A stretch of DNA of 64,000 bases, taken from NCBI GenBank assembly GCA_977020255.1, contig CDROCS010002096.1, forward strand, positions 1 to 64,000. The letters are read 5' to 3'. Below are positions 1 to 26,191 of the stretch, piece by piece. How positions within the stretch are numbered: position 1 is the first letter of the stretch; each line of letters begins with the position of its first letter. The position numbers were made by a program, and so were the translations under genes. The DNA is from Obrimoposthia wandeli (Eukaryota). The notes beneath the pieces are model-generated. The model had not been told where the DNA came from. It saw only the letters and a program-made list of their open reading frames with translations, and did not search any database.

Positions 1-3000
1 ATTCTTACTAACCCATCTCCTTTTATCGTCAAAAAGATTTTAAAGCAACTTTAGAGATAAATGTTGTATGAAGCTGATGGTTAACCGATGCTATATACGT
101 ACTGGCTAACACACAATTTCTTCATTTTCATAAAAAATTGAGGTAGTCTGGATGTCTTAAGTTAGTTTGTTTTAAAGAAATACCCTTAGCCCTTAATTTA
201 TTTTGAAGTGAATATTATTTTGATTTTAAGAAAACCCATTCATTTCTAATCAGTACCATCACTTAAATCTTTAAATTTTCCAATTACAGCTTTAAAGTTT
301 TCTTTCTGAATACAAGGATGTGTTTTAGGATACTACTGTATCTAAATACCCATCCTTAAATCATTTCTTTGAGTAATTTATCCTTATTAATATTCACACA
401 CTCAAGGAAAAAGAATCTGTGTCCATAGCTACAATTCGAATACTACAATTAAAAGTTTGCCTATACCGTTCAAGCTCAACATATTGTAATTGGATACTGT
501 AATTTAGATAGATCAAATAGAGCTTCACTCTGATATATGAAGGCCGATCTAAACATGTTTCCTTGTTTCTGTATTAAAACTAAATTTAAATCATCATTTA
601 TTTGAGTATGACGTTTAAACCAAGGACTCGAAACTAATTTTTCAAACCGTTTATCATTATCACATAATCTGATATCAAGTCGCCTCTTTAAGATTCTCAA
701 CCGTTTTACCTTAAACGGAATTATTTTTTAATTTGTGAAACTCATATTCAAACTTATTAACACTAGTTGCCCGCTTTTTGAATCAAAAATCTATATATTG
801 TTTAAAACGGGTGCTTGTCTAAACTGAATCGTACTATGACTTTTTAAGATTTCAGCACCAAGAAAACATAGAATTGTAGTAAACGGAAATGTATTACATA
901 ATGTTCTTTATCATTATGTGTTAAAAGTAATTTAGGAGTTTTTGAGTTTGGTGAACACATCTTATGTGGTCCAATAGGGTATGTCATCAACTTTATCATG
1001 TATACGATCCGGAATATGTAAATCTACTTCAACAAGAAAACTCCATACGGTTTTACTTTAAATCCTTTTCACTCTTCTAACTAAATTCAAAATAGAATCA
1101 AAATTATCATGCACCCATTTAAATTCCATATGTGGTAAAGGTTGACTTAAAGCCCATCCGTATAAGTTATTCACATATATATAGAGAAGTGACGTATTAT
1201 CATCGGACTTACAATAATGTTTATTAACAAAAGTCATACCTCCTCTAATACCTGCTTCAAATAGATTAAACATTTCTGGATCATGTAGCAATTCTATTTT
1301 ATGTTTTAATGATTTGATTGCACTACACCAACTAAGACCGGGAATACTAGAAATTAAGAAACTCAAGATTATCATCAAATCTAACTTTCTGTCTAAAAGC
1401 CTCAAATACATCGCAAAGGAAGTATACATCAAGACGCATATATTCCATCATATAGTCTTTAATATTAGTGCAAGCTAGTTTTGTCCACATTGTTTGAGCT
1501 AAATTATATTTATCATCTGTAACACTATCAGGAAATTTACATTTTGGAGGTAATTTATCTTCCTTACAACTGGAAATATATTCATAGGGAAAAACACCTT
1601 TACTAGATATCAAATCAGTACTAAAATATCTTGATGTATACAGTGAATTTGGAAGATAACTAACCAATCTTTCAAGACTAGTTGTTGTAAAAAGATATGA
1701 ATCTAAAAATTTCAATGTTCCAGTTGATAATTCTATTTTGAGAGCAATACATTTTTCACTAGATTTGGGTATGATTGAATAACTTTTCCCTTTTAATTTT
1801 GCAAATTTTAAAATATGATGAATATCGTAACCCATTAAGTTGTGAAAATGTACTGGTAATATAGGTATATTATCGAATCTACGAGATAAATTACATTTAT
1901 TACAGGGTGCACCCAAGAATACACCTGAAATATGAATATATACACGTACTAATTCTCTAGTGATTTTATAACAAAGGTAACATATACGACTATCTCGAAA
2001 AGCTAACCGATTTTCATTTGTCATTATTAGTAGTGTATGCATGTTATTTCGCCAAAAGGTGCAAAGATTTCATTAAAAAATTTCAGTTAATTTATCAATA
2101 AAGTTGGTAGCACAATCTAAACCAAAATAAGAACAGTATTCTATTGTGTCAGTAACATTATATTTCAACAACAGTCCAACTGCAATGGGAGTATGTATAT
2201 GTTTAACAGTCACATCAGGTTCTAAAATACTTTCAAATTCAGCATAAACTACAAAAGGAGATTGAACTGACTTTGACCAATCTGTGAATTCACAATATTT
2301 TTTATCCAGCATAGCGAATAAAGTTGTAGTATCAGTATTAAAATTGCAATGGATTATATGTTTATCATAAGCAGCCCCTGCTTGAAAACCAAAAAGACAT
2401 TTCGGACACCAGTAAAGGCGTAAACCATAACTATGGCAATTAAATAGTCTATTTAAATTAGGAACACCACAATAATGATAAGTGTTACGGTCTTCTAATA
2501 AAATTAAATTAACAATTTGATTACATGCCCGTAGTTTTGTTCGGTAAATTATACTAACCTCAGGATTTTTCAACAAATCCTTATTCAAATACTTTTAATT
2601 TCGGAATACTTAAGAACTGTAATTGCTATTTGATTATCCCGTTCAAATTACGGTATTGAGGCTAAGGGCATAGAATCTGACTGATATTTTTACTCATTTA
2701 AATATTGATTATAAGAAGTTTATCGATCTCTATGACAAATTTCATTATCATTTTTTAATACGCTAAGGATAGCATAGAGAAAACATTTATTATCGCTGTT
2801 TTTTACATTGATTATTACCCTTTTATTTATTAAATTAAGTGGTGTTGGTATATATGAGGAACCCGAAACACTGGATAATTTAGTTAATTTAAAGGAAATT
2901 TGTAATATTTTAGAGATTGACTAACTACTCTCAATTCTGAGTACTTTTCAATACAATTATTTAACTTATCTGTTCTAATGATAATGAAATCATCATCGAA

Positions 3001-4180
3001 AATATTCGCCTTACAACTAATATGCCATGTTTCAAAATTTATAAATAGAGCTTGAATACCAAATTGAATTTTACAAGGTCCAAATGCGTTAATTTTTTAC
3101 TAAATCATTTTTCATATCATTATTATAAACCAGTTTCAGCATATTCTGGTTAGATGTAGTATCAAAAATAAGATTATCTTGAAGTGCACCACATATTTTA
3201 TTGCTTCAAGGCCTACAGTTGCTACAAAATCATTATATAATTCATCAACAAATGGCTTTTCATGTGTATAAAGTAAATCATTAAAATTTAGAGATTCATC
3301 TAAATACTTATCTAATTCATCATCATTATTTAAAAATGTAGTGAAATCAAAATTAGGGAGGAAATTTTTGGACTATTAGGACGTGACCAACTATCAACAA
3401 CTTTGAAATCAAAACTATTATCTAGATCAGTGATTCCCAATCTATGCGTCGCGACACACTAGTGTGTCGCCAAGCATATATAAGTGTGTCGCGAAAATGT
3501 CCCAGAATTGAACGTTTGTGTGCAGAAAAACAAGCACATATTTCGCATTAATTGATTTTTAAACGTTCGTTTTTAATTTTGGTTATCAGAATGATTTTGT
3601 TATTTAATTTTAGGTTATTCGGACAGTGGTTGCATTTTTTTTTGGTGAGGAGGGAGAAAAAGAAACTCTTTTATGGAAACTGTAAAACTTTATCGATTTT
3701 GTTACAAATATTATTAAAGCGAATAATAAAGTGACGAATTATTTAATAATCCATTTTTTATTTATTTAGCATTTATATCCATTTGTAACTGGTTTAGTTT
3801 CTTAAAATTTTAAATTTGATGTGTCGCGACATTAAGCGAAAAAAAAAAGTGTGTCGTTATTAAAAAAAGATTGGGAAACACTGATCTAGATTATCAACTA
3901 GTATTATATTATTAATTGTTTCTAGTGATGATGATGATGGTGATGATTTACGTTTATAATTTGATTTCTTGGTATTAAAGTAAGTTAAGTGATTTTTATG
4001 AATTGAATAAAAATCTAAAAATTTTATGTTTGTGAACGATATATCACACGAGGGACATATGTACCCGTTTTTAAACTTATAATATTTTTCCATTACATTA
4101 TGACAATTTAAGTCATGACAATTATTAGTACAATAGTTATAAAGTTTACATGATGGTGGTGGTGGTGGAAAACCACTAAA
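1..4180 (-). pseudogene. Protein-primed family B DNA polymerase (pPolB) of E1, heavily frameshifted, interrupted by a hAT MITE
   Basis: Fragments: FHNLMGYDIHH, FLDS (exonuclease), GIRGGMTFVNKH, YVNNLYGWALSQPLP, KLRAKG, KVALKSFDDKR. N-terminal YICPSC..HKNH matches E2's FVCPFC..HRAH. The C-terminus runs off the window edge. Confidence 0.9.
3428..3883. mobile_element. hAT (Buster-like) MITE, 456 bp
   Basis: TIRs CAGTGATTCCCAATCT / AGATTGGGAAACACTG. The 8-bp TSD ATCTAGAT at 3420-3427 and 3884-3891 has the central TA typical of Buster-type hATs. No coding capacity. Confidence 0.9.
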
Positions 4181-5843: not shown

Positions 5844-6229
5844 TTATTGAGAAACTTGATGATACAACCATAAAAGACATAAAGGGCCACAATTAGTAGT
5901 TAATGGATTTTGAATACTAGTTTTATTATAGAATACATGGCGTTTCCCTTGAGTTTCTACATGTCTGATGAGTGCTGATAGATAATAAATTCCTAGGGGG
6001 TCGAATACGTGTACACTATCACGTCTCACGAATAGCGCAATCCAGTGTTCACCAGGTAAATTACTCGTATCAGTATTTACAACATATCCCGAGATTTTAG
6101 AATTGGTATTTTATCCATGGGAAACACTCCTTTGAATTTCTGTTCTAATAATTCAATTCCCACAGTATTAACCTGTTTAGAACTACATTAATTATTAAGA
6201 TTATTAAGATCAATAAACACTTACTTCAT
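5844..6229 (-). pseudogene. Adenain-like cysteine protease of E1; 42-nt intron 6224-6183; one frameshift
   Basis: ATG AA|gtaag...tag|T TCT gives MNSKQV. Catalytic motifs LPGEHWIA, FDPLG, QNPLTTNCG are present. Confidence 0.9.
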
Positions 6230-6580
6230 CCAAAAATTGCACGTTTACCTTTAGTTACTTGAATTTCAGTATCGAAAACACCGTAAATTATAATGTTTGA
6301 TGGCTGTGTCAATCCTTAGAGAAACTTTACGTCGAGTCTTAGATTACCTTGTCTCGGTAATTGATGTTGATGTATATGAAAGTCAGGGGCCAATACGAAT
6401 GTAAAAAATGGATAACGTTCCTTAAAATCTTCAGATGTTATACCTATGCTTATATTCTTATCCAATAATCCCATGTTTTTAACCAGTAATTGAATATACG
6501 CAAACATGAACTCATCTTTTCAAAGTTTGTAGTGTACGTTTCAACAAAATCAGTGTTTCTACTAAGGGAAATTGAACCGA
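6226..6580 (-). pseudogene. C-terminal fragment of the E1 major capsid protein
   Basis: VGSISLSRNTD...YPFFTFVLAPDF...GNLRLDVKF...YGVFDTEIQ is clearly homologous to the E2 MCP C-terminus. Confidence 0.85.
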
Positions 6581-6624
6581 CTAGGTCCAACTATCTGATA
6601 TACAGCATCATTTATAAGTTTCAT
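6578..6624 (-). pseudogene. 5' stub of the E1 packaging ATPase, fused by deletion to the MCP fragment
   Basis: MKLINDAVYQIVGPS matches E2 ATPase MELNNNAVFQIVGPS. Confidence 0.75.
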
Positions 6625-6687
6625 AATAAGAATAAGAATAAGAATAAGAATAAGAATAAGAATAAGAATAAGAATAAAAATAAGAAT
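6625..6687. repeat. (AATAAG)n microsatellite, about 10 units
   Basis: Direct reading of the sequence. Confidence 0.9.
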
Positions 6688-6806: not shown

Positions 6807-6959
6807 TCATTTGAGATCTCTGTAGACATGTGAGCGAACTATTTCTTTAAGATGATCACGACTATCTTCATTAAAACTTGAAAAGAATTGAACACCATTT
6901 ATTGTTCCTTTTATAATTTCATCAACATTTTTATTAACTAATTTATCGTATTTCTCCAT
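6807..6959 (-). CDS. Small conserved Polinton ORF, homologue of E2 27416-27688; appears truncated
   Basis: DEIIKGTINGVQFFSSFNEDSRDHLKEIVRSHVYRD aligns with DEIFSGKIRGKEILSELKNNDITRDNIEILVRSHVIRE, in the same position upstream of the ATPase. Confidence 0.65.
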   Translation of the reverse strand: MEKYDKLVNKNVDEIIKGTINGVQFFSSFNEDSRDHLKEIVRSHVYRDLK

Positions 6960-6983: not shown

Positions 6984-7835
6984 TCAATTGTTTATACCAT
7001 TAAATTTTACATTTTTTACTCTCCTTTCAATTATATGTCATCATACTGGACATGAATGTAACCTTATAGAACATGAAATACATGTTTTCACATGTCCGCA
7101 TGGTAGAAATACTACTAATATGATTATTTAAACATACTACACAATCAGGTTCTTTTAACATGTATGAAAGTATATTTATATATTGTTTTTCAGGGTTTAT
7201 TTCTAAATTAGATAAATCACAAATAATTTCAAATAGTAAATTGTATTCTCCATATTGCATCATTTTATATTTTAAAACAGATTTTATTCTATCTTTCGTG
7301 AAAAACCTTTTCAAGTATCTGATGTTGTTGGTATACATCTACATATTGAATTTTTCCGTAGTTAAAGGATATTCAATTATACAATCTGTTTCGATTTTCT
7401 CAATAACATTAGCATCATAATAGGGTTCTAAACATTTTATATAACATATATCAGGTAATTTTACAACAATATCTGATACATATACTTTTCCAATCAATGG
7501 TACATTTGAAACATTTAACTTTAAAAGAAATGGAAATTTAGGAAAAAATTCATATGTTGCTTCATTGGTTTAAGATATCATTCTCATTCGGATATTGCAC
7601 CTTGACAGTATATACATTTTACTTTATCAGTTGAATCATCATCATGTTTATAAAATCCAGCTTTAGCTAAATTATATACAGATTGTTTTCCTTTAAAATT
7701 TATAATTAACGATCTTAATCTTTAACTTTCAGATTTATATGTCCAATGTAAAACTTTCATTCTAGAATAATCTACTTTTCGTCTAAATAAAACATCATCA
7801 ACAGTTTTATAATGAAGTATATAATCAATAAGCAT
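6984..7835 (-). pseudogene. Inhibitor-of-apoptosis (IAP)-like gene: BIR domain plus C-terminal RING
   Basis: BIR: YKSES*RLRS...LAKAGFY...DKVKCIYC...E*E...P..QH. RING after a +1 frameshift: CVVCLNNHI-VVFLPCGHVKTCISCSIRLHSCPV**. Several nonsense codons. Confidence 0.85.
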
Positions 7836-7863: not shown

Positions 7864-8530
7864 TCATAAGAAACTTTCAAGCAAAAACACAATAGACTCA
7901 ACTTGACAATGATAATCAAAATCTTTAATACCATGAATAATCGCTTTTCTACTAGCAAACACATAACACATAGAGTATTAAACTTTAAAATTCTGAGTGC
8001 TGGAAACAATTCTGGTTCAAACATACAATTTCTTCCCATTTTCATAGATATCTTATACAAATTAACCTTCTTGTTGATATTCACTAGGATACTTAGAGAT
8101 TGAATACGTTCAATTTCTATATTTTGAGCATGTTTGATTGGTTGTTTGCAACCCATAATNNNNNNNNNNNNNNNNNNNNNNNNNNNNNNNNNNNNNNNNN
8201 NNNNNNNNNNNNNNNNNNNNNNNNNNNNNNNNNNNNNNNNNNNNNNNNNNNNNNNNNNNNNNNNNNNNNNNNNNNNNNNNNNNNNNNNNNNNNNNNNNNN
8301 NNNNNNNNNNNNNNNNNNNNNNNNNNNNNNNNNNNNNNNNNNNNNNNNNNNNNNNNNNNNNNNNNNNNNNNNNNNNNNNNNNNNNNNNNNNNNNNNNNNN
8401 NNNNNNNNNNNNNNNNNNTAGTATAATCCTTTAACTTTTCAAGATATTGTATAGGTTTCTTTGATCGAAAAGGTAAGTGACTAACACTTCCCTTAAATTT
8501 ACTTTTATAATTTATATTGATTATTTTCAT
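7864..8530 (-). pseudogene. TBP-like gene of E1; assembly gap 8160-8418; one frameshift
   Basis: MKIININYK...MGCK...IQSLSILVNINKKVNL...CMFEPELFPAL...VFAS(R)KAIIHG...ESFL* follows the TBP repeat pattern. Confidence 0.85.
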
Positions 8531-8650: not shown

Positions 8651-9151
8651 ATGTTCAATTTACAAAAACCGATTTTGAAGAACACAAAGAATGAAATTTT
8701 AAATACAAGCAAAGTTGTACAGATAGATTCTGATGATACAGAATTAGAGGATATTTTTAATGGAGAAAAAGAAGATTTATTCAAAGAATCTGTACCTTAT
8801 TTCAGTTATACAATGAATTTTCTCAAGATGCCTGTTACCTTGGGATTAAAATACCCTGTTATGCTAACAAAGTCCAAGTTTGACTATGTCATCTCAAGGA
8901 TCCATCAAAAATATATTAATAATATCAATGCTATTTTCAAAAGAATGAAATTAGATATCAAAATGGAAAACTTTAGTGCTTTTATTAAAGCTGATGAAAA
9001 TATGTTTCAAGGTATAAATACTTACTCTGGCGAAGAATTTCCCAAGGGCAAATACTGGACTTTATTTGTTCAAATTCAAGGATTCAAAGTCGATAGACTC
9101 GGGAGACAGAAGCCTATTTGGAGAATCACTGAAGGACTTAAGAGAGTTTAA
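8651..9151 (+). CDS. Conserved Polinton protein, possibly an OB-fold ssDNA-binding protein
   Basis: Intact 166-aa ORF. FPKGKYWTLFVQIQGFKVDRLGRQKPIWRI aligns with E2 FPKKKQWTVTIRLYGYKKDEMGTKLPMWKI. Function is inference. Confidence 0.65.
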   Translation: MFNLQKPILKNTKNEILNTSKVVQIDSDDTELEDIFNGEKEDLFKESVPYFSYTMNFLKMPVTLGLKYPVMLTKSKFDYVISRIHQKYINNINAIFKRMKLDIKMENFSAFIKADENMFQGINTYSGEEFPKGKYWTLFVQIQGFKVDRLGRQKPIWRITEGLKRV

Positions 9152-9284
9152 TAAATATTGATTTAGTGTATTATTATCTTTTTATCATATGAATAAATAA
9201 TTAATTGATTTTATTATTCTTTCAAGGTTTACTATAAAATAAAGTAATATAAATATATAATATTTGCCAAAGGTGCTGCCCGGT

Positions 9285-9560
9285 CATGCAGGGCTCCCCT
9301 CTTAGGAGGCTCCGCAAGGGAGACTTTGGCCACTTAAAATCTATTTAATCTACTTTTGTTTTAAACGGCACGATATTTAGCGCGATATTTGAAAATAGTC
9401 TTGAAATCACGCATACAACGCCAAAAATGATTTTGCAGTAAAGGGTACCCCCCAGCGAGGGAGGACCTATTACCGTTGGCGTAGTATGCGTGATTTTCAG
9501 ATCAAATGTAGGTCAAGTGTTGAAATCCTGCATGTTGTATGAAGGATTTTGAGTCATTTT
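9285..9560. repeat. GC-rich hairpin cluster, probable remnant of the E1 right TIR
   Basis: About 22-bp stem GAAATCACGCATACAACGCCAA / TTGGCGTAGTATGCGTGATTTTC (about 9402-9498). Its loop contains GGGTACCCCCC, resembling the G/C run in the E2 TIR. Confidence 0.5.
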
Positions 9561-9699
9561 GATTCATTTTAAGCTATTTTAACGACATTCTGTCTAAAAA
9601 TGACTATATGTAGACTTTTTAGGCACTATAGTGTTGGTACTAAATCAAAGCGACTAAATCATCCCTTTCTTAGCCTATTCGACGGCAATCTGTGTGTTA

Positions 9700-14047: not shown

Positions 14048-14535
14048 AGTAGGTGGATGTGTCCGGTCTAATCCACACACCCCCTCCCCCCTTGTCCTTT
14101 AAAACCGTACATGTGTGTGGAGTGAAATTTCGTGTAGGCGTGTGGAGTGAAATTTCACTCCACACACATGCACGGTTTTAAAGGACAAGGGGGGGTTACC
14201 CCCCCCCACTAAAAATTTTTCGCGCCTTTCGGCGCGAAGGCTCGGGACAGATATAGGTCACAGACTAGCTCTGCGATGTACGGATGTCTCGCTCTCATAT
14301 ATGTCACAGACTAGCTCTGCGATGTACGGATGTCTCGCTCTCATATATGTCACAGACTAGCTTGGCGATGTACGAATGTCTCGCTCTCGTGTATATCACT
14401 AACTACCTCGGGTGATGGGTGAAAGTCGACGGGTGTTGGATGGAAACACCCAACCGACGACAACCCGCCCCTACGGGGCGGGCTCTATTCTCACGAAAAT
14501 AACAAAGATGGGCATCTACAGGCACGAAAAAACAT
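14048..14535 (+). repeat. Left TIR of E2, with nested palindrome and 3 x 46-bp tandem repeats
   Basis: Palindrome at about 14088-14193; 46-bp units start at 14251, 14297 and 14343; hairpin CCCGCCCC-TACG-GGGCGGG near 14464. Confidence 0.9.
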
Positions 14536-14683
14536 TACAAAAAATAAATTATTTGAATAAGAGGCTCTCATTGGACAATAAAAGAGGGTTAGTAAGATGT
14601 TTGTGTATATAAAGACACCCCCGTTCATTATTTTTCATAAATCAACAATCCCATTCTACAACAACGTTGACCTAGACGAAGAG

Positions 14684-16049
14684 ATGGAGGTTCAACTCTA
14701 TGGGGATCTCTCTCCAGTGCAGCAGCGAACGCCACCATCGTCGCAATACGTTGACTTAGATAGTCAAGAGTCATCGGTGGTGAGCGAAGGAGAAGCAGCA
14801 GCAAGAGCAAACCTGTTACAAGAAGAAGCCTCATTGGCCAGCTCAACTCCAAGAGAAGAACCAATGGACGTGAGAGGTGGGGTACAGAGATCCCAATATA
14901 TCGATCTGACTAGTCAGGATTCGATAGAGAATTGGGAAGACTGTACTCCCAGACAAAACACAAAACCCAATCGTCCGGCAACTTCAGCAGTAGCAGCAGG
15001 GAGATCCAATCTCTTCGACAATTTTGAGGCGGCAATCAAATGCCCCTGGAAATTGATCCCGCTGTCTCAACTGGAGAAAGTCCTCGCACCAGACTCAGAC
15101 AAGGAGCTGTTCACCGATGATGTACCTTCGGATTGGGAGGAGGACTTGACTTCATTTATCAACGAATGGATACAGCCAAGTAGGCGACGCCTATTCAACC
15201 GGTGGATAGGAAGCAAGCGGCAGTTAAGAAACCGCAACGCCATAGGGTCAAAACCCTCACTCGGAAGAAGGCCAAGTTGGTGAAACAGGCTAACCTGCCC
15301 ATCATTGAGGTAAATTATTTATATGTTTAAATTTTATTAATATTTTGCAGGAACCCGTCCAGATATTTGAGGAGACTTGGGGAGAAATTACTCCTTTCTC
15401 GCGGAAACGGACGAAGAGGGCAGAGGTGAAGAAGACGAGGCACTCGAGAAAATGTAAAACCTCAATTGGCCATTATTCTGAGGCGGTGATTGGCCAGCAG
15501 GAGATTCTCCAATCTCCAGTGGACGACGGACCAATCCTATATGAGAGGATCCCAGTCTCGCCGATCGAGATAAGTCCGCAATCAAGTCAACGACGCCTGC
15601 AGGAGACTGCTTCTCCTCATCCAACAACCAGCCAGAACTTGAAGAGGGCCTGGGATGAAGCTGGATTGGATGAATTCCTGGCGGAACTGGATTCACCGGC
15701 AATGCTTCCAGATTTGCGTGGGCAACAAGATGCCGTCTCACGCCAGCTTCAACGTGAGAAGGAGGAGAAACAGAAGAAAGCTCCGCGGAAGAGAAAGAGG
15801 ACTTCTATGACAGGGCCATCAACATCGGCTGCACCTCCTCCCAAAAAGTTGCGGCAACTATTGCCAAAACCTGAGGGAAGGACAATTGCTACAAAGCAAC
15901 CGGTGAAGCCGAAAAAGAAACCGGGCCGGCCAAAGAAGAAGGAACCAGTACCGATTTCTCCTATAATACTTAGTCGGAGGGATTACGACCCGAATGATCC
16001 CAATGATGACTTCGTAAAGATGTTTAAAAATATAATTTATAAAAATTAG
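14684..16049 (+). pseudogene. E2 early ORF1: disordered protein with SIM-like, acidic, NLS and AT-hook-like motifs; 41-nt intron 15310-15350
   Basis: TATATAAAG at 14606. ATC ATT GAG|gtaaat...ttgcag|GAA CCC splices in frame with ORF 15345. This join requires a frameshift and a stop near 15165-15185. Motifs: YVDLD, YIDLT, PRKRKR, KKPGRPKKK. Confidence 0.55.
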
Positions 16050-16243
16050 TTTCATATGTTTTCTTCTTAATATTTATTTTTTTAAATGTAGAAATACTAT
16101 CTTTAAGTTTATTTGCAATGATAAGTTATAGATTTATTAAACTCTCATTTGATAAATAAAAATATATCATTTAATTGGATTAAAAAATATCTTAAATTTA
16201 TATATATAGGTTCAAATTTATTAACCTCTTCATAATTAAAAAA

Positions 16244-16606
16244 ATGGAATTCATTAAAATGAAGAGTCTGGTGACGAAGATTGAAGCAAACATCAGAATA
16301 AATGAGAAGAAAGGGGACTTAAGAAAGAGGGTCCTCAACCAGAATTTGTATACTGCTGTCGCGACAGAGTGGAATCATCGGGTGGAGATACAGGATAGGA
16401 GGCTAGCAGAACGCCGTCGAATCGTGGAGTGGAATAAGAAGATCGAATTGGAAAAAAGGAAGGTGGATGAAAAAAGAAGAGAAGAGATGGAGGATGTTCG
16501 GCGAGCAGCAAGAAAGAGAATCCTCCAGATTAAACCGGAAGAGGGTCCTTCTACAAAAAAATTAATTTTTGATTATTATTTTGTCTTTATTGATTATGTT
16601 ACATAG
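16244..16606 (+). CDS. E2 early ORF2, coiled-coil K/R/E-rich protein with weak SERTA-like motif
   Basis: Intact 120-aa ORF with GC-richer coding composition; LRKRVLNQN. Confidence 0.6.
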   Translation: MEFIKMKSLVTKIEANIRINEKKGDLRKRVLNQNLYTAVATEWNHRVEIQDRRLAERRRIVEWNKKIELEKRKVDEKRREEMEDVRRAARKRILQIKPEEGPSTKKLIFDYYFVFIDYVT

Positions 16607-16686
16607 GAGAATTGACAAAATATACCAATCTTATCATGAAAGTACTTCGTTATAAACAACGGGATTTGCTGCAAATTTAGATAATT

Positions 16687-17175
16687 ATGCAGGAATATAT
16701 CATAGATTTTGAGGCTTTCATTAACAAAAATGGGGATTATATTATAAAAGAATTATGTATTATGGATGTATGCGACGTTTTTCATCCATTGCATTTCATA
16801 TTTCAAATAGATATCCCGTTTAAAAGTTTAGATTATAAGAAAAGATTTACTAATTTATATCTAACTAATTATTTTCATTTATTAAAATGGAAAGAAGGAC
16901 ATAAGGCTTTTTGTGAAATATGTATTTTCGATACTATTAAATCTAATTTTGATATTGAAAATGGATTTTTTTATGTTTTAGATGAAATGGATGGCAAAAA
17001 GTATAAGACTTTAAAAAAATATTTTTCCAAATTGAGGTTGAATACTTTAAATATTTCACGCGATCATCTATTAAAAATTCCACGAAATATTTGCTGTCCA
17101 TATTGTAATCATGGTGACCATTGCGCATATAAAAAATGTTTAAGTCTTTCTTATTATTACTGGAAATTCTTCTAA
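16687..17175 (+). CDS. E2 ORF3, putative DnaQ/DEDD-like nuclease-fold protein with C-terminal Cys/His cluster
   Basis: N-terminal IIDFEAF...IIKEL (DxE motif) and CCPYCNHGDHCAYKKC. Family assignment is from recalled pattern only. Confidence 0.55.
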   Translation: MQEYIIDFEAFINKNGDYIIKELCIMDVCDVFHPLHFIFQIDIPFKSLDYKKRFTNLYLTNYFHLLKWKEGHKAFCEICIFDTIKSNFDIENGFFYVLDEMDGKKYKTLKKYFSKLRLNTLNISRDHLLKIPRNICCPYCNHGDHCAYKKCLSLSYYYWKFF

Positions 17176-17400
17176 TTGGATAAATTCATTATTAAAATTT
17201 TACAATTATTTAGATAAACAATTCTTCTAATTGGAGAAATTCATTATTAAAATTTTACAATTATTTACAAATAAGCCATTTGATTGGAGGAATAAAAAAA
17301 TATTTTTTTCGACCATTTAACAGATAAACAAACCTTCTCAATTTTTTAATCCAATAGGAAAAGAGCATGTGTGCATAAATTTTTGTATATAAGCAAACAC
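17171..17400 (+). promoter_or_regulatory. pPolB promoter: 55-bp-period duplication, four CCAAT boxes and a TATA box
   Basis: TCTAATTGG(A)..AAATTCATTATTAAAATTTTACAATTATTTA at 17171 and 17226; ATTGG near 17284; CCAAT near 17352; TATATAAG near 17386. Confidence 0.55.
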
Positions 17401-17433
17401 TTTCTTCATTTAAATCCCCGACAATTTGAAATA

Positions 17434-20400
17434 ATGCCTATGGTAAGAATTTATTTTTATTATTTCCTTATTAATATTTATTATTTCAGATTACTTGTAA
17501 CCTATTCCCTGCGTATTGTGGTGCTTCGGCTCCACATGGAGGAGAGACCTGCATGGAGACAATGTCTGCATACTACCGGACAAAGTCTCAAGGTGTTCAC
17601 TTCTTTGTCTGCCCCTTCTGCAGAACAATGGAGGAGAAGGAGTTTCGAGACTTCTTCAGTGAACATCGAGCTCATCTATCGTGTTTCACGGCCAACAAGA
17701 AGAGGGATATCGTCCAGTTGGTGCGCGATTCGCAGGTCGCTCCACCTCCAATTCCAGTTGCAGTCGATCAACCCTTTTACGGTCCTGCGATTGGTCTCCC
17801 GGCTCCTGATTCTGACCCATCCACTCAAATGTCTGAATGGGTGAATGACATATCCCAGTCAGATTTCGAGATAGAGCAGTGCAGCGATAACTCATGGTTG
17901 GAGACCATCGAGGAATCCGGTTTTGTCGAGTCAACGGACGACAGCTGGATGGATTCCATCAATGAAGAGGACTTCATTCCAGCTCAACTTGGATTGTCAT
18001 CATTAGGTTTTTTTTTTTTTTTGTAAATTGTAATTATATATTTTATTTTTTAATATATATATTTTATTTTTTATTCAGGAAATACCGTTCTACAATCGGC
18101 ATCTGCTACAACAGATATGCCTCCACCATCGCGAGTGCCTACATCGATGTTAGCACGCCTTAGAGGTCATTTTTAAAAATATATTTATTTTTTAATATAT
18201 TAATTTCAGCACATGCATCATCGACGTCCACAACAGTCGCTTCAATGACATCAGCTACTGATGATCGAGTGACCATGACGTCTACAAGCGCATCATCTGC
18301 GAAACCAGCATTAGTTGCCTCACCTACAACACGAGCTGCAATTGCCTCAACATCGGCAGCATGTCCAATAGCAGCACCTACAACCTCAGCTGCGATTGTG
18401 TCAACTATTAATATAAATAGTTGTCTTCCCGTTCAATTAGGGGGAGGTTTGTCAGCGACAAACGGAAGAAAGAGGCGAGGCCAATTTCTTAATAAGGTCC
18501 CACCAAAAAAACGTAGAGAAAACGGTGCTACTATAGAGTATCACCTAAATAATAAATATGTTATAGTTAAGGTGCCATTAGGAAATGAAATTTTATTAAA
18601 TGTAGGTGTAGATTCAAATATTGAAAATCTTTTAAAATCAGAATTGACTAAATTAGGACAGGCTAAGGTTCAATTTTGCGCAACAGTGCAGTTTAAAAAT
18701 GTCAATGAGAAAACTAAAACTTGGGTAATTTCACATAAAGCAACTGTTTTCTATGATAATTTTGTAACTGAAATTGGAAGAAACCTGGATGAAAAAATTG
18801 CTAATTATAGCGAGTTAAGTAGTGGATGGACTCTAGTTAGAATTCACGATGTTAGCTTTGTTCTAACAAAGTTCACTGACATGATATATCTTTCGGGGAG
18901 TTCATACATTCCTTCACCTAGATCTCTTCAACTTTTACGTTCCATTGTTAACGTACAAAACAGTGATAACCTTTGCTTTCTGTATAGCGTGTTGGCCATC
19001 CTCGAAAGGGATGTAATTACTGAACATAGAGAGCGTGTCAGTAAATATACCCCTTTTTTAAATGAATTGCAGTATCATGGAATAGATTTTCCAGTTAAAT
19101 TAACTGCGATATCAAGATTTGAACATCTTAATAACTTGAGTATTAATGTATTCAAATATAATACTGATATCCCAGTTAATGTAACAGATGAAGAAATTTT
19201 TAAAAATCCTTTTGTAGATGTAATTTATAGGAGCAAAAATGAGGTGACTCAGGTCAACTTAATTTTGCTCGAACATAATAAAAAATTCCATTATGCTGCA
19301 ATTCCCAATTTAGATCGTCTTCTAAATTTAGATATTGGAGCCTTACCGGTTAGGATAAGGTGTAAGTGGTGTCATAGATGTTTGCATGCTCTAATCCGAG
19401 CTCTCTTACAGCAAACATCTGACATTATGTTCACTGAATCCTGATGACAATACGCTATATAGCATGCCTAAGGATAAGGATTTAAAATTCAGGGATTGGG
19501 CAAAATGCATACCCGTGGAATTCAGGGTGTATGCAGATTTTGAGTCAATTTTAGCATTGCACGACCAGTATGAGAGTATTCACCTACCGGCTTCGGCAGG
19601 ACTACTATTCTTAAGCCCCAATATTACCCAGTATCATAAATTTTCCGGTCCAAATTGTATTTTAGATTTTATGTTAAAATTAGAGGAATTAAGAACAACA
19701 ATTGTCAAACCGTGGTATGATCTCAATGCTCATCAAGCAATGATCATGACAGGCATAGACTGGGTTAATTTTAATTCTTGTAGATTATGTTATTTGTGTG
19801 GAACCCAGTCTAAGTTAGTCAGAGATCACGATCATGTTACGGGGCGATACTTGGGAGCGGCATGCAACCTTTGTAACCTTGGCCGTCGTCTCCCTAAAAA
19901 ACCACGCATTCCCATCGTGTTTCATAACCTTAAAGGATATGATTTGCATCATATACTTAAATACGCGTTGGGTACATTAAGCTCTTGGGAAATTTCATGT
20001 ATACCTCAAACTTCAGAGAAATATTAATCTTTAACTGCATATACTGAATTCTGCAGTTTAAGATTCATAGATTCTCTGCAGTTTTTGAGCAGGTCTTTAA
20101 AAAATTTAACGGCATCTTTAAATGCATGGCCAATTACACAGTCAGTGTTCCCAGCTTCGGTTAACGATAAGGGGATTTTTCCGTATAAATTTGCGAAAAC
20201 TTTCGCAGATTTAGAAAATACAACGGAAATCCCACCCATAACTGAATTTGAAAGTCTAAGTCTTCAAGACTATAATGAGGCCCGTAAATTTTGGGTGAAT
20301 AATTGTCGAAATCTTTAGAATATATGCTTTATTATATGAAGTTAGACATTTATCTTTTAGCTGATGTTTTTGAGTCCTTTCGTGTAAAGTCTTTAGCAGA

Positions 20401-21820
20401 AGATGGGCTAGATCCCATGCATTTCTTTATTTTACCTGGTCTTTCATGGGCAACAGCAATAAAAACTCTTAAAATTAATATCGAGTTACTGCAAGATCCC
20501 GCGATGTATCAAATGTATGATTATGGTATACGCGGTGGAATGACTTTTGTCAACAAACATCATGTTGTCAAAAATCAATCCACAGAGATTCTGTACATCG
20601 ATATTAATAATTTGTATGGGTGGGCGCTTACTCAACCTCTACCTCATGCCAACTTTAAGTGGGTTTATGATGTGGATCAGTTGAATAAGTTGATGACAGA
20701 TTTGGCTACTGTTGATACAGTTTCATCCGACGTTGGCTATTTGGTTGAGGTGGACATAAAGATCCCTCCCAATGTGCATGATAAATTAGATGATTTTCCA
20801 GCAGCGCCTGTTCATCAATGCCCACCTAATTCAAAGGTTAAGAAATTATTGTTAACCCATGAAGACAAGTTGAATTATGTTGTGCATTGGCGGCTTCTTC
20901 AATTCTACTTAAAGTTGGGAGCGAAAGTTACTCGAATTCATCGTGCTATAAGCTTCAGTCAAAACTTTGTGTTTAAAGACTATATTGAGAAGAATTCAAG
21001 AAAACGTAATTTGGCCACTAGCAAATTCGATCGAGATTTTTACAAGTTAAAAAGTAATAGTCTCTTTGGAAAAACGGTAGAGGACTTGCGGAAACGTATT
21101 TGTCTACGGTTTTGCAATGATGAGCGTAAACTAATAACATATACTAGCAAGTACAACTTCAAGCGTAATCTTTCAATTGCATATGATTTGGTAGCAGTGG
21201 TATTAGGAAAACAGAGTATTTGTCTCGATCGACCGAGTTATATAGGTCAAACGGTTTTAAACATTTCCAAACTCAGAATGTACAAGCTCCAATATATAGA
21301 ATTAGAGAAATATCGCCACGAATTCAATTGTGAGATTAAAATCGCAGCTGGGGACACTGACTCTTTCTTTTTAGAATGTAGGAATGTTAGTTTAAATAAT
21401 CAATTATTACCAGCAATGTTTAGGGACAACTTACTAGATACCCATAAATATCCCGCTAACCATCCTCTACACTCTATGAGTTTAAAGGACATTATCGGGA
21501 AATTTAAGGATGAAAGCGAGGGACAGGTTTCGTATGATGATTGTATTTTCCTACGCCCTAAATGCTACAGTTTACATACATCTAATAATACATGTTCAAT
21601 GAGAGCAAAGGGTGTTGGAAGAAACAATCTTACACATGAGGCCTACCGGAAAGTTTATGATACTGGGTGTATTGAAAGCGTTGAGCAAACTAGATTTATT
21701 TCAAGAGCCCATCAACTGTATTCCCATAAATCAACAAAGATCGCTTTGAGTAGTAATGACGACAAGCGCTTTTGGGTAAAAAAGAACGCTAGCTTGGCTT
21801 ATGGACACTTCAGAATTTAA
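17434..21820 (+). pseudogene. pPolB of E2 with spliced N-terminal extension; exons 17434-17442, 17490-18006, 18079-18165, 18210-21820
   Basis: All three GT-AG introns (47, 72, 44 nt) keep the frame. vOTU-like NVQNSDNLCF...HYAAI; YADFES; RDHDHVTG; FHNLKGYD; YIDINNLYG; KSNSLFGK; DTDS. Frameshifts near 19390 and 20312; TAA at 20025. Confidence 0.93.
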
Positions 21821-22096
21821 ACGGTTTTCATATTTTGATTTTTTTAGTTTAGTTTTTTTAAATTTTAGATCCCTATGGCACCTAGACTCTAACTTATTTG
21901 TTATTGCAATACTTTTTAGGATGGACCTTATTTATTATGCCTTATCTTTGCTGACATATCTCATTGTGATGTTGTTTTTAATAAATGTATTAAAAAAAAA
22001 TTCGTCTTATGTCTTTTATTATTTTACCCTTATATTTTTAGGGATTTAAAAAATAATTCAAAATAAAACATTTAAAATTTTTATTTTTATAACACA

Positions 22097-22477
22097 CTAA
22101 TCGTTTTGCAACGATAACCATAAAATACATAAATGTCCACAGTTTCTCGTCGCAGGATCCTGATATTGTATCTTGTTGTAAAATACTCTTCTTCGTCCTT
22201 TTTGAATAGTTGAAACAAGTTTGTAGGGATAATACATTGCAAGTGGATCAAATACATGTATTGTCCACTCTCTAACATAAATAGCTATCCAATGTTCTCC
22301 TGGTAAATTCGAAGTATGAGTATTGATAATGTAACCTCCATATTGAAAAAATGGAATCATATCAATAGGATAAACTCCATTGAATTTATCACCCAGGACC
22401 TTCTCTGCTGATTTTTTTACTTGTTTTGAACTAAATAAAATTTAATAAATATAAATTTAAAATATGTCTTACTCCAT
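22097..22477 (-). CDS. Adenain-like cysteine protease of E2; 5-nt first exon, 42-nt intron 22472-22431
   Basis: ATG GA|gtaag...ttag|T TCA gives MDSKQVKK...GVYPIDMIP. Catalytic GEHW, FDP, QDPATRNCG. ORF intact. Confidence 0.92.
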
Positions 22478-22478
22478 T

Positions 22479-23709
22479 CTATAATATGACAGTTCTGTTT
22501 TTATTGATTTGTATTTCCGAATCAAATACTCCGTAAATAAGCACCGTAGTAGGATGGGTTAAAGCTGCATTGAACTTAATTTCTAGTCGTAAATTTCCAT
22601 CCTTTGGTAGTTGGCATTGGTTTATATCAAAGTCTGGTGCTAAAACAAATGTGAAGAACGGGCAGCTATTTTTAAAGTCAGTGAAAGAAATACCATTGTT
22701 TATATTTTTATCTAGTTGACCCAAATTCCGAATAATAGATTGGGTATAAGCCAAAGCATAAGCGTTACCTTCGAAATCTGTTTTATATGTTTCACGACAA
22801 TCAGTATTTCTTGAAAGTGTCACTGAACCAACATTAAGATTGTCAAATTGAGTTGCATCTGTCGTATAATTTCCTAGAAACTTTGCAGTTTTTTAAAAAG
22901 AAATTAAAATGAATTTCGGTAATCTTACATCACCAAAAATTTGATCCTTATTAAAAGCTTATGTACCCGTACCTAAAGAATAAGATATAAGTTTAGTTTC
23001 TCTAATAGGATAACAAGCATTGTTTTTTTCCATTCCTATATTATGCGCCATTAAAACTGACTGCTCGGTTTTAACTCTTCGAACATACAATTTTGCATCC
23101 AAAATATCAAGTCTAGGTTTTATAAATGTCCGTGCTTATCAAAGAAAATTTCCATTTATTATGTTTCAAACGAAGATGTACATTAACACCGGGAATTAAA
23201 TATTTCGGTTGTTCAAAGAAATTCAATCTCAAAGACCCACACATTTCGTAAGCTTTAGAACCTGCAATCCATTCTTTGCGAGTTGCAACAGTTTTATCAT
23301 AACCAATGGTTGCCAAATTAGTATTTTGAGTATCAGTACTATAATTCAAAAGACTTTCAATCAAAGCTTTATGAGCATAGGAAGAATTTCCACCTTTAAT
23401 TTTGACATTATTAAGAGTAACAATGGCATCATTAAATAAAGAATTAAAGAGATAATTTACAGGTGTTACATCGGCATTTTCATCTAAATTAGTACCATCC
23501 CGATTTAATACTTTTATTTGAACATAAAGCAAAGTATCATTCAAATCTAAATACTCGCTATTGGAACCATTAATATTAAATTCTAAATCGGTTAAAGTGG
23601 TTCCTGAAACTGAGTTAACTAGGAATATTTCTTCAAAGGAAGCATTATCTACAACTACTTGTGGAAGCGGTTTATCAAAAATACATAATTCAGTTTTGGC
23701 GCAACTCAT
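22479..23709 (-). pseudogene. Major capsid protein (double jelly-roll) of E2
   Basis: MSCAKTELCIFDKP, LDLNDTLLY, KYLIPGV, GNLRLEIKF. One frameshift near 23120 and two in-frame TAA codons near 22960 and 22893. Confidence 0.92.
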
Positions 23710-24083
23710 TTTGCAAATATTGTTCCTTCAACTTTCTTACGTTTGTTTATATTAATTTTTAGCTTCTTTTTACTTTTAAATCCACTACCTCCTTGGCTTT
23801 TATTTGATTTACGTTTTCTAATCAAATTTACAACTTCAGGTAAAACATTATCAAGTTCATCAAGCGCATGCTTCTTAAAAGTTGGTATTAGTTTATTGTC
23901 ATTAGATGAAAGGTAATCCTTTCCTAATTTTGATATAAATCACCCGAGTCTCTTTAAAAGAGGAAAGGCAAATCTACCTAATGTTCTAAGCCAGCCAGAT
24001 CAGTATTGTTTACCAACAAAATATGGTAATTCTCCACCTTGTTGGCTTTGACTATAAGCTTCAATTATTGCTGGATTCGCCAT
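23706..24083 (-). pseudogene. Small basic virion core-type protein with Q-x-G-G sites
   Basis: MANPAIIEAYSQSQQGGELPYFVGKQY*SGWLRTLGRFAFPLLKRLG*...SQGGSG plus a K-rich tail. Its stop overlaps the MCP ATG (ATGA). Not in the ORF track because of two stops. Confidence 0.8.
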
Positions 24084-25115
24084 TTTGTTTTCTTAAATGT
24101 ATTGTTAAACTTGTCTTGGCTCCGTACGTGAAATCTATTAGTTGTCCGGAATCATCTCTAATATTTACTTCAATATTGTTTATAGAAAAGAGAGAAACTG
24201 GAAGATACATTGGTTGATCTATACACATACCGACAGTGTCCCCATCTCTAGTTTCATTTTTAGATATCCATATTATTCTCAAAAGTGGAACTCGCTGTCC
24301 TCCTACAAGCGTTGGTTCTATTAAATTAGTATAAATATATAAATGATTAACAGCATTTAAATGTTTTGCCTTATTTTTAGCTTTTATGGTTTTTATTGTA
24401 TGGGTTTCAAAGGTATTTCTGTTTAAATCAAGGTTTTTAGCGAGTTTATCATCAAATGAAACTCGTTTTATATTGCTCTTTACTGTAAACGTTAATTTAC
24501 CATTTAATGTTTCACATTTATCGAAATATTCACTACATTCCTTCTGTATTAATTTACAGAAATTCACTTCACTATCTATTTTATAATCTTTTGAAAACGT
24601 TTTCAGTTCCACAGTCTTTGGTCTCGTTTCAAGTAACAAAACTTTTGCTACTCTACCAGGAACATTTCTAACCAAATTAGATGAGATAATATCCCGTTTA
24701 TTACGAGCTACTGTTTGTTCACTATCAAAACTGAATTGAAGAGCTTCTTTTTTAGATTCAAAATTAATTTTCATAACTTGAAGAAATTTTAATCGATTTT
24801 TAAATCTGACTTTGTTATTTTCAAATATTACTTTCACTTCTTTATCTATACAATTGTAATAGAATTGTCCTTTACTATCAAACCCGATCACAACTTCAGT
24901 TGTTTTTTCATGATCAACTTCTTTTGTAAACGAAATATGTGAGTTTTTTTGATGGTAATTGGAGAATAATAAAAAGAAAATTCTGTTAAAGCCGCTTCCC
25001 ATTCTCCTTGGAGATTTATAGAATTTTCCCAATCGATAATAAAGCTACTAGCGTCATTATCTGGTTGAGTCTTCGGACATCCGTTACTTGGTAAAACCAT
25101 ATACATAGACTTCAT
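24061..25115 (-). pseudogene. Minor capsid (penton-like) protein of E2
   Basis: MYMVLPSN...QGEWEAALTEFSF, then a frameshift near 24930, then YIYTNLIEPTLVGGQRVPLLR...YLPVS...IEVNIRDDSG. Confidence 0.88.
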
Positions 25116-26191
25116 ATTATATTAGATGCTGATATCCTAGTTGGGTCTGAATAACCATGCCATTTAACAAAGTATTGTTTATGTTTACCTGTACCCTTAG
25201 ATTTTAATATTTTTTGAATACGGAAAACGCTAGGTTTATTTGATATTACTTGTAATTCTTGCTCATAAAATTTACCGTGAACGATATTATTGTCAGCATC
25301 TTTAATAGTATACATTATTGGATTACTCTTTTGATCAATTTTACTTATACAAAATATTTCATCGCTCCAATTCTGATCAAAGTTTTTAATAAATGGAGTA
25401 GAGCTAATTTTCGAAATTCGAACATATTCGTTTTTCTTATATTAAGCTTTTTTAATTTTATCTTTTTTATTGCTGTTCATCCAAATTTCCATAGAGTTTT
25501 TATTAGTAACATCAACAGGTCTCATTCCCTTGAGACCTCTATGTTCAGAGTGATTATATGCATGTATTATTTTAGGTAAAACTTGGATCCATTTTTTATT
25601 TCCTTCTTTTGTGAAATACTTTTTTATTCGATCTCTTAGAGTACGATTAAATCTTTCTACTACTGCTGCTTTGTATTGTGAAAATACACAGTAATGATTT
25701 ATATTATTTTGTTTAAATAATGATTGAACTTGCTTATTATAAAATTCTTTTCCTAAATCAGTTTGCACATTTTGTGGAATGTCCTCTTTTAATATTTCTT
25801 TAATGGCTTCAAGCATAGCTATTGAAGACTTTGCTTTAACTGGAATTGCACGAGCAAACCTGCTAAATACATCAATACATGTTAAAATATATCGATATCC
25901 CTTATTAATGGAAGAATATGGGATCATCTCCATCAAATCCATTTGCCATAAATTATTAGGACCGCTGGTTTTGTAAGCTCTAGTTGGAAACCTTCTCATC
26001 GGCTTGTTCAGACTGTAGGCTAACTGGTCGCTCAGCCATTTCTGCGTTTTCTTGTAATTTTGTTTTGTTCTTTTTGCTAATTTTGAAACTCCTGTGTAGC
26101 CAATTGGATCTTTTGGATTGAACCATATCTTCTCCATTACAACAATTTGAATAGAAAGAAAATTTAAGTTTAAGTAAAGAAGGGCTAGCAC
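25112..26191 (-). pseudogene. Retroviral-like (rve) integrase with C-terminal chromodomain-like region
   Basis: WQMDL, IDVFSRF, QTDLGKEF, VERFNRTL; tail IQKILKSKGTGKHKQYFVKWHGY. One in-frame TAA at 25442; the frame continues to 25112. Confidence 0.93.

What the first reader, a model, noticed from the sequence alone, without database searches (positions are those of the whole stretch)
6984..7835. Decayed IAP (BIR+RING) cargo gene in E1, absent from E2
Seen: a BIR pattern (RLRS, LAKAGFY, D.VKC.YC, WE mutated to *E, H) and a complete IAP-type RING (CVVC, VVFLPCGH, CISC, CPV**), hidden by stops and a frameshift. It sits between TBP and the small ORF, which are adjacent in E2. Known: baculoviruses and entomopoxviruses use captured IAPs to block apoptosis. 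Inference: an accessory anti-apoptotic gene that supports a true viral phase.
Basis: partly seen in the sequence, partly recalled or inferred. Interest (0 to 1): 0.75.

Follow-up and report, generated by a model that had tools for sequence, protein, structure and literature searches.

The report
Broken anti-death gene swapped among transposons
This is a broken copy of a gene for a cell-death-inhibitor-type protein (IAP) that several virus-like Maverick transposons and a giant retrotransposon in this animal genome all carry; it likely helps keep the host cell alive while the element multiplies, but it does not by itself show that the element spreads as a virus.

Summary
Observation confirmed. 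6984-7835 (minus) is a decayed BIR-UBA-RING IAP gene (Pfam BIR E 2.6e-8, RING E 2.2e-6) with 6 stops, 2 frameshifts and a 45-nt deletion, in a dead, internally deleted Maverick (E1). It is not a retrocopy: 27 of 27 siblings found via the TBP gene carry it; no poly(A). Siblings decay neutrally (dN/dS 0.98). Divergence from family B, where it is often open, was purifying (net 0.32).

IAPs in adintoviruses are published. No RNA data. 'Supports a viral phase' is not established: IAP-less lineages keep the same virion-type genes, and a retrotransposon carries the same gene. Best reading: a selected pro-survival ubiquitin-ligase cargo, here a pseudogene.

The parts
6984..7835 (-). Decayed IAP gene (N-terminal extension, BIR, linker, UBA-like, RING); 6 stops, 2 frameshifts, one 45-nt in-frame deletion
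   Evidence: 91% nt to the natural open family-B ORF L025
7530..7721 (-). BIR domain; three zinc ligands present, fourth position not Cys; no acidic residue at the XIAP-E314-equivalent site (family-wide)
   Evidence: Pfam PF00653 E 2.6e-8
7194..7359 (-).
   Evidence: Family-B model residues 171-220 pLDDT 91-95; XIAP UBA 2KNA Z 4.6, rmsd 3.6, 55 aligned; weak blastp hits fall on UBA-like regions of cellular IAPs; no Pfam or phmmer hit
7010..7143 (-). IAP-type C3HC4 RING, split by a frameshift; last ligand position is a stop
   Evidence: Pfam PF13920 E 2.2e-6
7868..8156 (-). TBP-like ORF (single TBP repeat), broken; upstream neighbour
   Evidence: Pfam PF00352 E 2.9e-4 here, 1.3e-11 in E2
6807..6959 (-). 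Small ORF, 24 nt downstream of the IAP stop; partly co-transferred with the IAP between lineages A and B
   Evidence: no Pfam hit
6580..6625 (-). 5' stub of the packaging ATPase, joined to the 3' part of the capsid-type gene by an internal deletion that removed the rest of the ATPase, PW, integrase and the minor-capsid-type gene
5844..6581 (-). 3' part of the major-capsid-type gene and the adenain-like protease remnant
   Evidence: tblastx to E2; Peptidase_C5 E 0.045 for the E2 homologue; capsid label rests on Capsid_N E 0.022, position and recall
1..3100 (-). Broken B-family DNA polymerase of E1
   Evidence: tblastx to E2 polymerase; E2 polymerase hits phrog_1907 DNA polymerase E 7e-11
8651..9151 (+). 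166-aa ORF of unknown function, with homologues in E2 (28435-29422) and other families
9184..9658 (.). Right terminal inverted repeat of E1; its partner lies just beyond the window start (C6600:50923-51361, 81.5% identical)
14048..30287 (.). E2: IAP-less Maverick of another lineage, with TIRs and a 6-bp target-site duplication (comparison element)

Best explanation
The stretch is a pseudogene copy of a BIR-UBA-RING IAP that is fixed cargo of its Maverick family, was swapped between Maverick lineages, shares ancestry with the IAP inside a Burro-like retrotransposon, and likely acted as a pro-survival ubiquitin ligase in the host cells where these elements multiply. Shown: identity, lesions, presence in siblings, neutral decay after insertion, purifying selection before it, the lineage swap, and the clade with the Gypsy IAP. 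Inferred mechanism: when an element is transcribed, copied as linear DNA and integrated in stem or germ cells (the only cells that pass copies on), the RING recruits an E2, the UBA binds ubiquitin chains and the BIR picks a substrate, damping caspase-dependent death. Because the acidic pocket residue is gone, substrate capture is predicted not to follow the classical Smac/Reaper/caspase-9 IBM route. That benefit holds whether spread is inside the cell or by particles. The copy in this window has no function of its own.
For: Pfam BIR and RING pass their cut-offs. Model of the natural family-B protein: mean pLDDT 75.8, best Foldseek match cIAP1 3T6P E 7e-8; BIR Z up to 13.8, RING Z 7.7. IAP present behind TBP in 27 of 27 loci found with a TBP-only query, 0 of 27 uninterrupted. 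31 of 32 family-A copies broken; A-A dN/dS 0.98 (95% 0.72-1.31); net A-B 0.32 (0.17-0.55); 11 diverged family-C-type copies 0.37-0.63 including decay. 24 of 30 top-ranked loci from a homologue search have the full 301-codon family-B frame (ranking favours intact copies). Lineage swap: A vs B dS 0.14-0.18 at IAP against TBP 1.8-4.4, ATPase 1.06-1.21, integrase 0.79-0.91, with a sharp 62% to 86-97% step at the TBP/IAP border. Family C has the gene on the other side of TBP and nests among IAP-less lineages in the ATPase tree. Gypsy link: tblastn E 4e-48 over residues 4-329; 46% identity over UBA-RING; shared motifs outside BIR and RING; clade 99.9/98 in a 23-taxon IQ-TREE and 0.991 in a 134-taxon FastTree. 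[quoted passage not shown]
Against: No expression or activity data: the four runs found behave as DNA. The XIAP-E314-equivalent residue is never acidic in Maverick BIRs (0 of 70), and that site matters for Smac binding (PMC2173256 section 7), so a death-blocking role is less certain than the domain names suggest. Families A and B have lost the second BIR-like module that C and the Gypsy keep in degenerate form. Young family-B copies show dN/dS about 1 among themselves, as expected of inserted copies but giving no sign of host co-option. Several successful Maverick lineages, E2's among them, have no IAP. The transposon clade sits on a long branch, so attraction cannot be fully excluded. Schmidtea B-IAP itself and named baculovirus, entomopoxvirus or adintovirus IAPs were not in the tree.
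Confidence: 0.6

Rival explanations
1. One reading: an anti-apoptotic accessory gene kept because the element infects cells as a virus, as with baculovirus and entomopoxvirus IAPs.
For: Family B keeps open ATPase, integrase, protease-like, capsid-type and polymerase frames. The capsid-type gene shows dN 0.39 / dS 1.18 between lineages. IAPs are reported in adintoviruses (PMC8502044; 10.64898/2026.07.28.741253). Module swapping between lineages is easiest during co-replication, and the Gypsy partner has an envelope gene too.
Against: The evidence for a viral phase is the virion gene set, which IAP-less lineages also have. The closest relative is in a retrotransposon, not among the 4 viral IAPs in the tree. 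A PolB-less family carries two IAP copies. No particles or free genomes were testable here.
Confidence: 0.2
2. A non-apoptotic E3 ligase: the altered BIR binds a host restriction, silencing or signalling protein and the RING ubiquitinates it, helping the element escape control without blocking caspases.
For: Pocket acid lost in all Maverick lineages, with Leu-Lys kept at positions 314-315; the Gypsy BIR has Arg at 319, as in type I BIRs. UBA and RING are the parts best shared with the Gypsy protein (46%). Type I BIRs act in signalling (PMC6360406); not all baculovirus IAPs block apoptosis (PMC4966970).
Against: The related Burro1 B-IAP is reported as anti-apoptotic (second-hand). Gln319 and an aromatic residue at 323 are type-II-like in most Maverick copies. 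No substrate was identified.
Confidence: 0.17
3. A host retrocopy or neutral passenger that landed in E1 (or its family) and never mattered to the element.
For: Intronless; dead in nearly all family-A copies; dispensable in other lineages.
Against: Present in 27 of 27 TBP-anchored siblings. No poly(A) or flanking duplication; 18-24 nt to the next start codon. Net dN/dS 0.32 with an upper bound of 0.55. Kept across lineages at 42-47% protein identity with all zinc ligands.
Confidence: 0.03

Closest known systems
Adintovirus / Maverick-Polinton accessory IAP homologues (Starrett et al. 2021, PMC8502044: passages, section 3.1 and a supplement search; leafhopper adintoviruses, bioRxiv 10.64898/2026.07.28.741253: passages)
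   Same: An IAP homologue carried as an accessory ORF by an element with PolB, rve integrase, packaging ATPase and adenain-like protease.
   Different: Those passages only list the gene. Domain make-up, selection, swapping between lineages, the altered pocket and a retrotransposon link are not described there.
Burro/GYPSM1 giant Gypsy elements of dugesiid planarians and the Burro1 B-IAP (PMC6431247: passages; Lee et al. 2026 Dev Cell: not held, known only from PMC13465017 passages)
   Same: This genome has a giant Gypsy with an in-frame envelope, BIR and RING in a 4,633-codon frame; its IAP module is the sister of the Maverick IAPs.
   Different: In the Mavericks the IAP is a stand-alone ORF in a DNA element, with a more canonical first BIR and a more eroded or absent second BIR. 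The Schmidtea sequence was not compared, so orthology with B-IAP is inferred from architecture only.
Baculovirus IAP-3 and related viral IAPs (PMC4966970: passages)
   Same: Host-derived BIR plus RING protein of about 300 aa with a short leader, carried by a dsDNA element.
   Different: Those have two BIRs and a RING. This one has one intact BIR, a UBA-like domain and no pocket acid, and it does not group with the 4 unnamed viral IAPs sampled.
Cellular BIR-UBA-RING IAPs (cIAP1, XIAP, DIAP; PMC6360406, PMC13159474: passages)
   Same: BIR, UBA and RING folds in the same order; top structural match is cIAP1 3T6P.
   Different: Only 26% identity to the best cellular hit; intronless; long branch. 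No cellular RING-IAP surfaced in this genome's scored candidates, but those searches were swamped by transposon copies and miss intron-split BIRs.

Membership tests
IAP (BIR-containing protein) | At least one BIR domain above the Pfam cut-off | tested here: met
   PF00653 34.7 bits vs 22.9 in the window copy; 53 bits in open relatives
IAP (BIR-containing protein) | Cys-Cys-His-Cys zinc ligands in the BIR | tested here: met
   All four in open family-B/C copies and in 28-30 of 32 family-A copies per site; only three in the window copy itself
RING-type IAP | C-terminal C3HC4 RING | tested here: met
   PF13920 E 2.2e-6, E 3e-11 in open copies; broken in the window copy
RING-type IAP | UBA domain between BIR and RING | tested here: inconclusive
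   Confident three-helix bundle; 2KNA Z 4.6; weak blastp; no Pfam or phmmer hit. The model used cellular IAPs in its alignment, so the test is partly circular.
Type II (IBM-binding) BIR | Acidic residue at the XIAP E314 position of the N-terminal binding cavity | tested here: not met
   0 of 70 Maverick cores (66 Leu; a few loci counted twice) vs 401 of 435 other BIR cores; site defined in PMC6360406 and PMC2173256
Anti-apoptotic viral IAP (baculovirus IAP-3 type) | Two intact BIRs plus RING | tested here: not met
   One BIR in families A/B; family C has a degenerate second module (own-HMM E 0.08-0.11, ligands kept in 10 of 11 copies)
Anti-apoptotic viral IAP (baculovirus IAP-3 type) | Demonstrated inhibition of apoptosis during infection | not testable with these tools
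   No RNA run listed; no assay possible
Maverick/Polinton (adintovirus-like) | B-family polymerase, rve integrase and A32-like ATPase | tested here: met
   E2 and family B: rve E 1e-13 and 3e-12, Pox_A32 E 1e-6 and 6e-7, phrog DNA polymerase E 7e-11. E1 keeps polymerase remnants but has lost the integrase and most of the ATPase.
Maverick/Polinton (adintovirus-like) | Adenain-like protease and jelly-roll capsid genes | tested here: inconclusive
   Peptidase_C5 E 0.045, Capsid_N E 0.022; no PHROG or PDB support. Labels rest on position, size and recall.
Maverick/Polinton (adintovirus-like) | Terminal inverted repeats with a 6-bp target-site duplication | tested here: inconclusive
   E2: TIRs and a 6-bp duplication present. 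E1: TIRs present at 81.5%, ends eroded, no duplication recognisable.
Processed host retrocopy | Poly(A) tail, flanking duplication, absence from sibling copies | tested here: not met
Burro1 B-IAP lineage | Groups with the IAP module of a Burro-type Gypsy polyprotein | tested here: met
   With this genome's Burro-like element:
Burro1 B-IAP lineage | Orthology to the Schmidtea Burro1 B-IAP sequence | not testable with these tools
   Paper not held; no such protein returned

The most novel reading that the evidence does not exclude
A single captured IAP lineage circulates as shared cargo between a DNA-virus-like Maverick and an enveloped retrotransposon in a flatworm-like genome. It is swapped between Maverick lineages, doubled in a polymerase-less parasite family, and re-tooled to bind something other than IBM peptides. 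In a host lineage reported to lack RING-IAPs, these thousands of transposon copies would be the main source of RING-IAP activity in stem cells, so the Burro1 mutualism would extend to Mavericks.
Probability: 0.15. Interest if true: 0.8.

Novelty: new variant of a known kind. Interest (0 to 1): 0.5.

Why it matters
The copy itself is an ordinary pseudogene, and IAP cargo in Mavericks/adintoviruses is published. The family around it is informative. It shows cargo moving between co-resident Maverick lineages with a measurable sequence island. It shows one IAP lineage shared across transposon classes. It also shows that an anti-death gene cannot be read as proof of a viral life cycle. It makes a testable extension of the Burro1 result: if Maverick IAPs are expressed in stem cells, a second transposon class contributes to host cell survival, through a BIR whose peptide pocket has changed.

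Tried and rejected
Retrocopy: rejected. Assembly artefact: rejected for the 6 stops; laying DNA contigs at 100% identity covered 30 of 30 bins but only in short pieces and settled nothing more. Expression: no RNA holder listed; the four runs cover introns and intergenic DNA and behave as DNA; summed contig depth was not used as a copy number. Close relatives in public protein sets: none. Best was 26% identity; the top 150 of 5,063 HMMER hits were multi-BIR proteins at 30-42% identity; profile searches returned 2 and 5 generic IAPs (polyproteins over 2,000 aa are outside the searched range). IMG/VR: 8 loci, none with Maverick core genes near the IAP. Host RING-IAP: none among scored candidates, which is inconclusive. 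A Bcl-2 search to find Burro elements gave 11 low-copy hits that were not examined further; the DSPc search found them. First structure model with 5 sequences was poor (pLDDT 45) and was not searched. UBA by Pfam and phmmer: no hit. Two rows of alignment A2 were out of frame and were ignored. The full IQ-TREE timed out and a 33-taxon run ended without supports. The family-A open copy and one viral IAP dropped out of the tree input. The protein atlas was unavailable. Direction of transfer between Gypsy and Maverick: unresolved, since each side is monophyletic (Maverick 85.2/92). Literature searches listed no paper on a Maverick IAP shared with a retrotransposon; the Burro1 paper itself could not be read and may discuss it. 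No complex prediction was run.

Full report
1. Observation. With X at stops, Pfam gives BIR at E 2.6e-8 (34.7 bits, cut-off 22.9) and RING zf-C3HC4_3 at E 2.2e-6 (27.8, cut-off 27). Compared with a natural open relative from the same genome (L025), the copy is 91% identical in DNA and has 6 stops, 2 frameshifts and a 45-nt in-frame deletion. Three of four BIR ligand positions and seven of eight RING positions are intact. Two other assembled versions of this insertion share the six stops.

2. Context. E1 is a dead Maverick/Polinton of about 10 kb: right TIR at 9184-9658, left TIR just off the window, polymerase remnants at 1-3100, and an internal deletion that joins the ATPase start to the end of the capsid-type gene. 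E2 (14048-30287) has TIRs, a 6-bp target duplication, rve integrase, A32-like ATPase and polymerase, but no IAP. Trees of TBP-like, ATPase and integrase genes place E2's lineage apart from E1's. The protease and capsid labels have only weak profile support. The host is an AT-rich 1.35-Gb animal genome. It is probably a dugesiid-type planarian, inferred only from the Burro-type element below and from earlier scan notes; I did not test this with host genes.

3. Not a retrocopy. A DNA search with the cassette gave 43 matches (40 of 3,469 candidates scored). A search with the TBP-like gene alone, blind to the IAP, gave 30 loci. Three are this insertion; the other 27 all carry IAP sequence behind TBP, none uninterrupted. 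There is no poly(A) and no flanking duplication, and the next start codon is 24 nt away (18 nt in family B). Of 32 family-A copies, 31 are broken, mostly at different places (L002, L003 and L062 left out as duplicates).

4. Selection. Pairwise dN/dS among family-A copies is 0.98 (bootstrap 0.72-1.31), which is neutral decay. Net divergence between A and the younger family B is dN 0.040, dS 0.125, ratio 0.32 (0.17-0.55) (my own Nei-Gojobori count with kappa 2). A Pfam BIR search returned 12,110 candidates; all 150 scored passed the cut-off, and 28 of the 30 fetched were Maverick-type. These are not copy numbers. Family B (299 aa) had the full open frame in 24 of 30 top-ranked loci, and the one element examined in full had open core genes. 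Family C (333 aa, 42-47% identical) was uninterrupted in 4 of 8. Both counts are biased towards intact copies by the ranking.

5. Anatomy. A model of the natural family-B protein (41-sequence alignment) has confident BIR, three-helix and RING blocks. Foldseek's top match is cIAP1 BIR3-UBA-CARD-RING, 3T6P (E 7e-8). VIA-align gives BIR Z 13.8 and RING Z 7.7, and the only listed match to residues 175-230 is the XIAP UBA (Z 4.6), a middling and partly circular result. Family C has an eroded second BIR-like module whose Cys/His are kept in 10 of 11 diverged copies; A and B have lost it. At the XIAP-E314 position, which lines the IBM cavity (PMC6360406, passages) and whose mutation impairs Smac binding (PMC2173256, abstract and section 7), 0 of 70 Maverick cores are acidic against 401 of 435 in other IAPs; position 315 is Lys in 70 of 70.

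6. The gene moves. Families A and B are distant elements: TBP 60-62%, ATPase 73-75%, integrase 71-72% DNA identity, dS 0.8-4.4. Their IAPs are 90-91% identical with dS 0.14-0.18, with a sharp step at the TBP border and a fading edge through the small ORF (5 family-A copies). This is a module swap between co-resident lineages. In family C the gene lies on the other side of TBP, and C nests among IAP-less lineages in the ATPase tree, which suggests a separate insertion or several losses. A polymerase-less derivative of C has the gene twice, in 4-5 kb inverted arms (5 of 5 examined).

7. Origin. Public searches found no close relative. An earlier scan note (e1-8577180) pointed to a retrotransposon, and I tested it. 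A DSPc search led to a giant Gypsy whose 4,633-codon frame holds envelope, BIR, RING, protease, RT and integrase, the layout described for Burro (PMC6431247, passages). Its IAP module matches family C over residues 4-329 (E 4e-48) and family B at 46% over UBA-RING. It shares the N-terminal extension, the post-BIR motif, the pre-UBA motif, the short UBA-RING linker and the C-terminal tail. BIR+RING trees join the Maverick and Gypsy IAPs (FastTree 0.991, 134 taxa; IQ-TREE 99.9/98, 23 taxa), apart from the cellular IAPs and 4 unnamed viral IAPs. The branch is long, each side is monophyletic, and direction is unresolved. Named baculovirus, entomopoxvirus and adintovirus IAPs and Schmidtea B-IAP were not in the tree.

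8. How it most likely works (inferred). A RING/UBA ubiquitin ligase made from active elements lowers caspase-dependent death of the stem or germ cell in which the element replicates and integrates, using a BIR surface other than the classical IBM contact. Support is indirect: purifying selection, repeated uptake, and the report that Burro1's BIR-RING module protects planarian stem cells (seen only second-hand in PMC13465017, passages; the paper was not held). Against it: no RNA data, the altered pocket, and not all baculovirus IAPs are anti-apoptotic (PMC4966970, passages). The gene does not decide between viral and intracellular spread; virion genes and particles do.

9. Novelty. IAP homologues in adintoviruses are stated in Starrett et al. 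2021 (PMC8502044: passages, section 3.1, supplement search on a file cut when stored) and drawn for leafhopper adintoviruses (10.64898/2026.07.28.741253, passages). Maverick expansion in Dugesia is reported without mention of IAP (10.64898/2025.12.11.693146, passages; bioRxiv supplements are closed). RING-IAPs are reported lost in the Platyhelminthes sampled (PMC13159474, passages; the word 'planari' does not occur in its text). Six searches listed nothing on a Maverick IAP shared with a retrotransposon, but this scan had noted that link on another piece of the genome. The lineage swap, the pocket change and the double-IAP polymerase-less family were not in the notes I saw. Verdict: real feature, new variant of a known kind, interest 0.5.

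Noticed in passing
G000:C609:145755-160039; also C777, C873, C2408, C4062: Polymerase-less Maverick derivative: 4.0-5.3 kb inverted arms (97.7-99.9% identical), each with ORF, IAP, TBP-like and part of a phosphatase-like gene, around a 6.0-kb core (ATPase, PW, integrase, capsid-type genes, protease). The inner junction is the same in 5 of 5 copies examined, and more such IAP pairs about 10.5 kb apart appear. It looks like a successful non-autonomous family in which one arm replaced the polymerase arm.
   Followed up: partly
G000:C609:149402-150124 (L066/L067): Family C carries a dual-specificity-phosphatase-like ORF (Pfam DSPc E 3e-7) with a degenerate catalytic motif, 30% identical to the phosphatase of the Burro-like Gypsy: possibly a second cargo shared by the two classes.
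   Followed up: partly
G000:C399:422088-441839 (L147-L149): Burro-like giant Gypsy with 99% identical LTR parts and a 4,633-codon frame: zinc knuckle, fusion glycoprotein, IAP between two aspartyl-protease domains, RT, RNase H, integrase, two DSPc stretches. 108 of 108 scored matches were 97-100% identical.
   Followed up: partly
window 7868-8156 and 27790-28036: The TBP-like ORF is a single TBP repeat of about 100 aa and is present in every Maverick lineage seen in this genome.
   Followed up: no
window 14048-30287: E2: complete-length but broken Maverick with TIRs containing internal hairpins and a 6-bp target-site duplication; polymerase on the strand opposite to the structural genes, unlike families A and B.
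   Followed up: partly
window 43584-46020: Internally deleted remnant of an E2-type element (81-91% to E2 segments).
   Followed up: no
window 52686-54055 and 54395-55376: A Tc1/mariner-type element with about 90-bp inverted ends and an open 351-aa DDE transposase (Pfam DDE_3 E 1e-18), followed by a second, frameshifted transposase-like remnant.
   Followed up: no
window 3860-4535: Cys/His-rich ORF upstream of the E1 polymerase; in family B the homologous module is in frame with the polymerase N-terminus.
   Followed up: no
G000:C6600 and C4144: Two further assembled versions of the E1 insertion with shared flanks (93-97%): alleles, haplotigs or segmental duplicates.
   Followed up: partly
L016 (G000:C694:435434) and L017 (G000:C6834:49196): The only non-transposon BIRs among 30 fetched top Pfam hits; they look survivin-like and BRUCE-like (labels recalled, not from a call).
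   Followed up: no
window 60308-62695 and 39898-41067: Host-like genes: a low-complexity CCCH zinc-finger exon and a single-frame LRR membrane-protein-like ORF.
   Followed up: no
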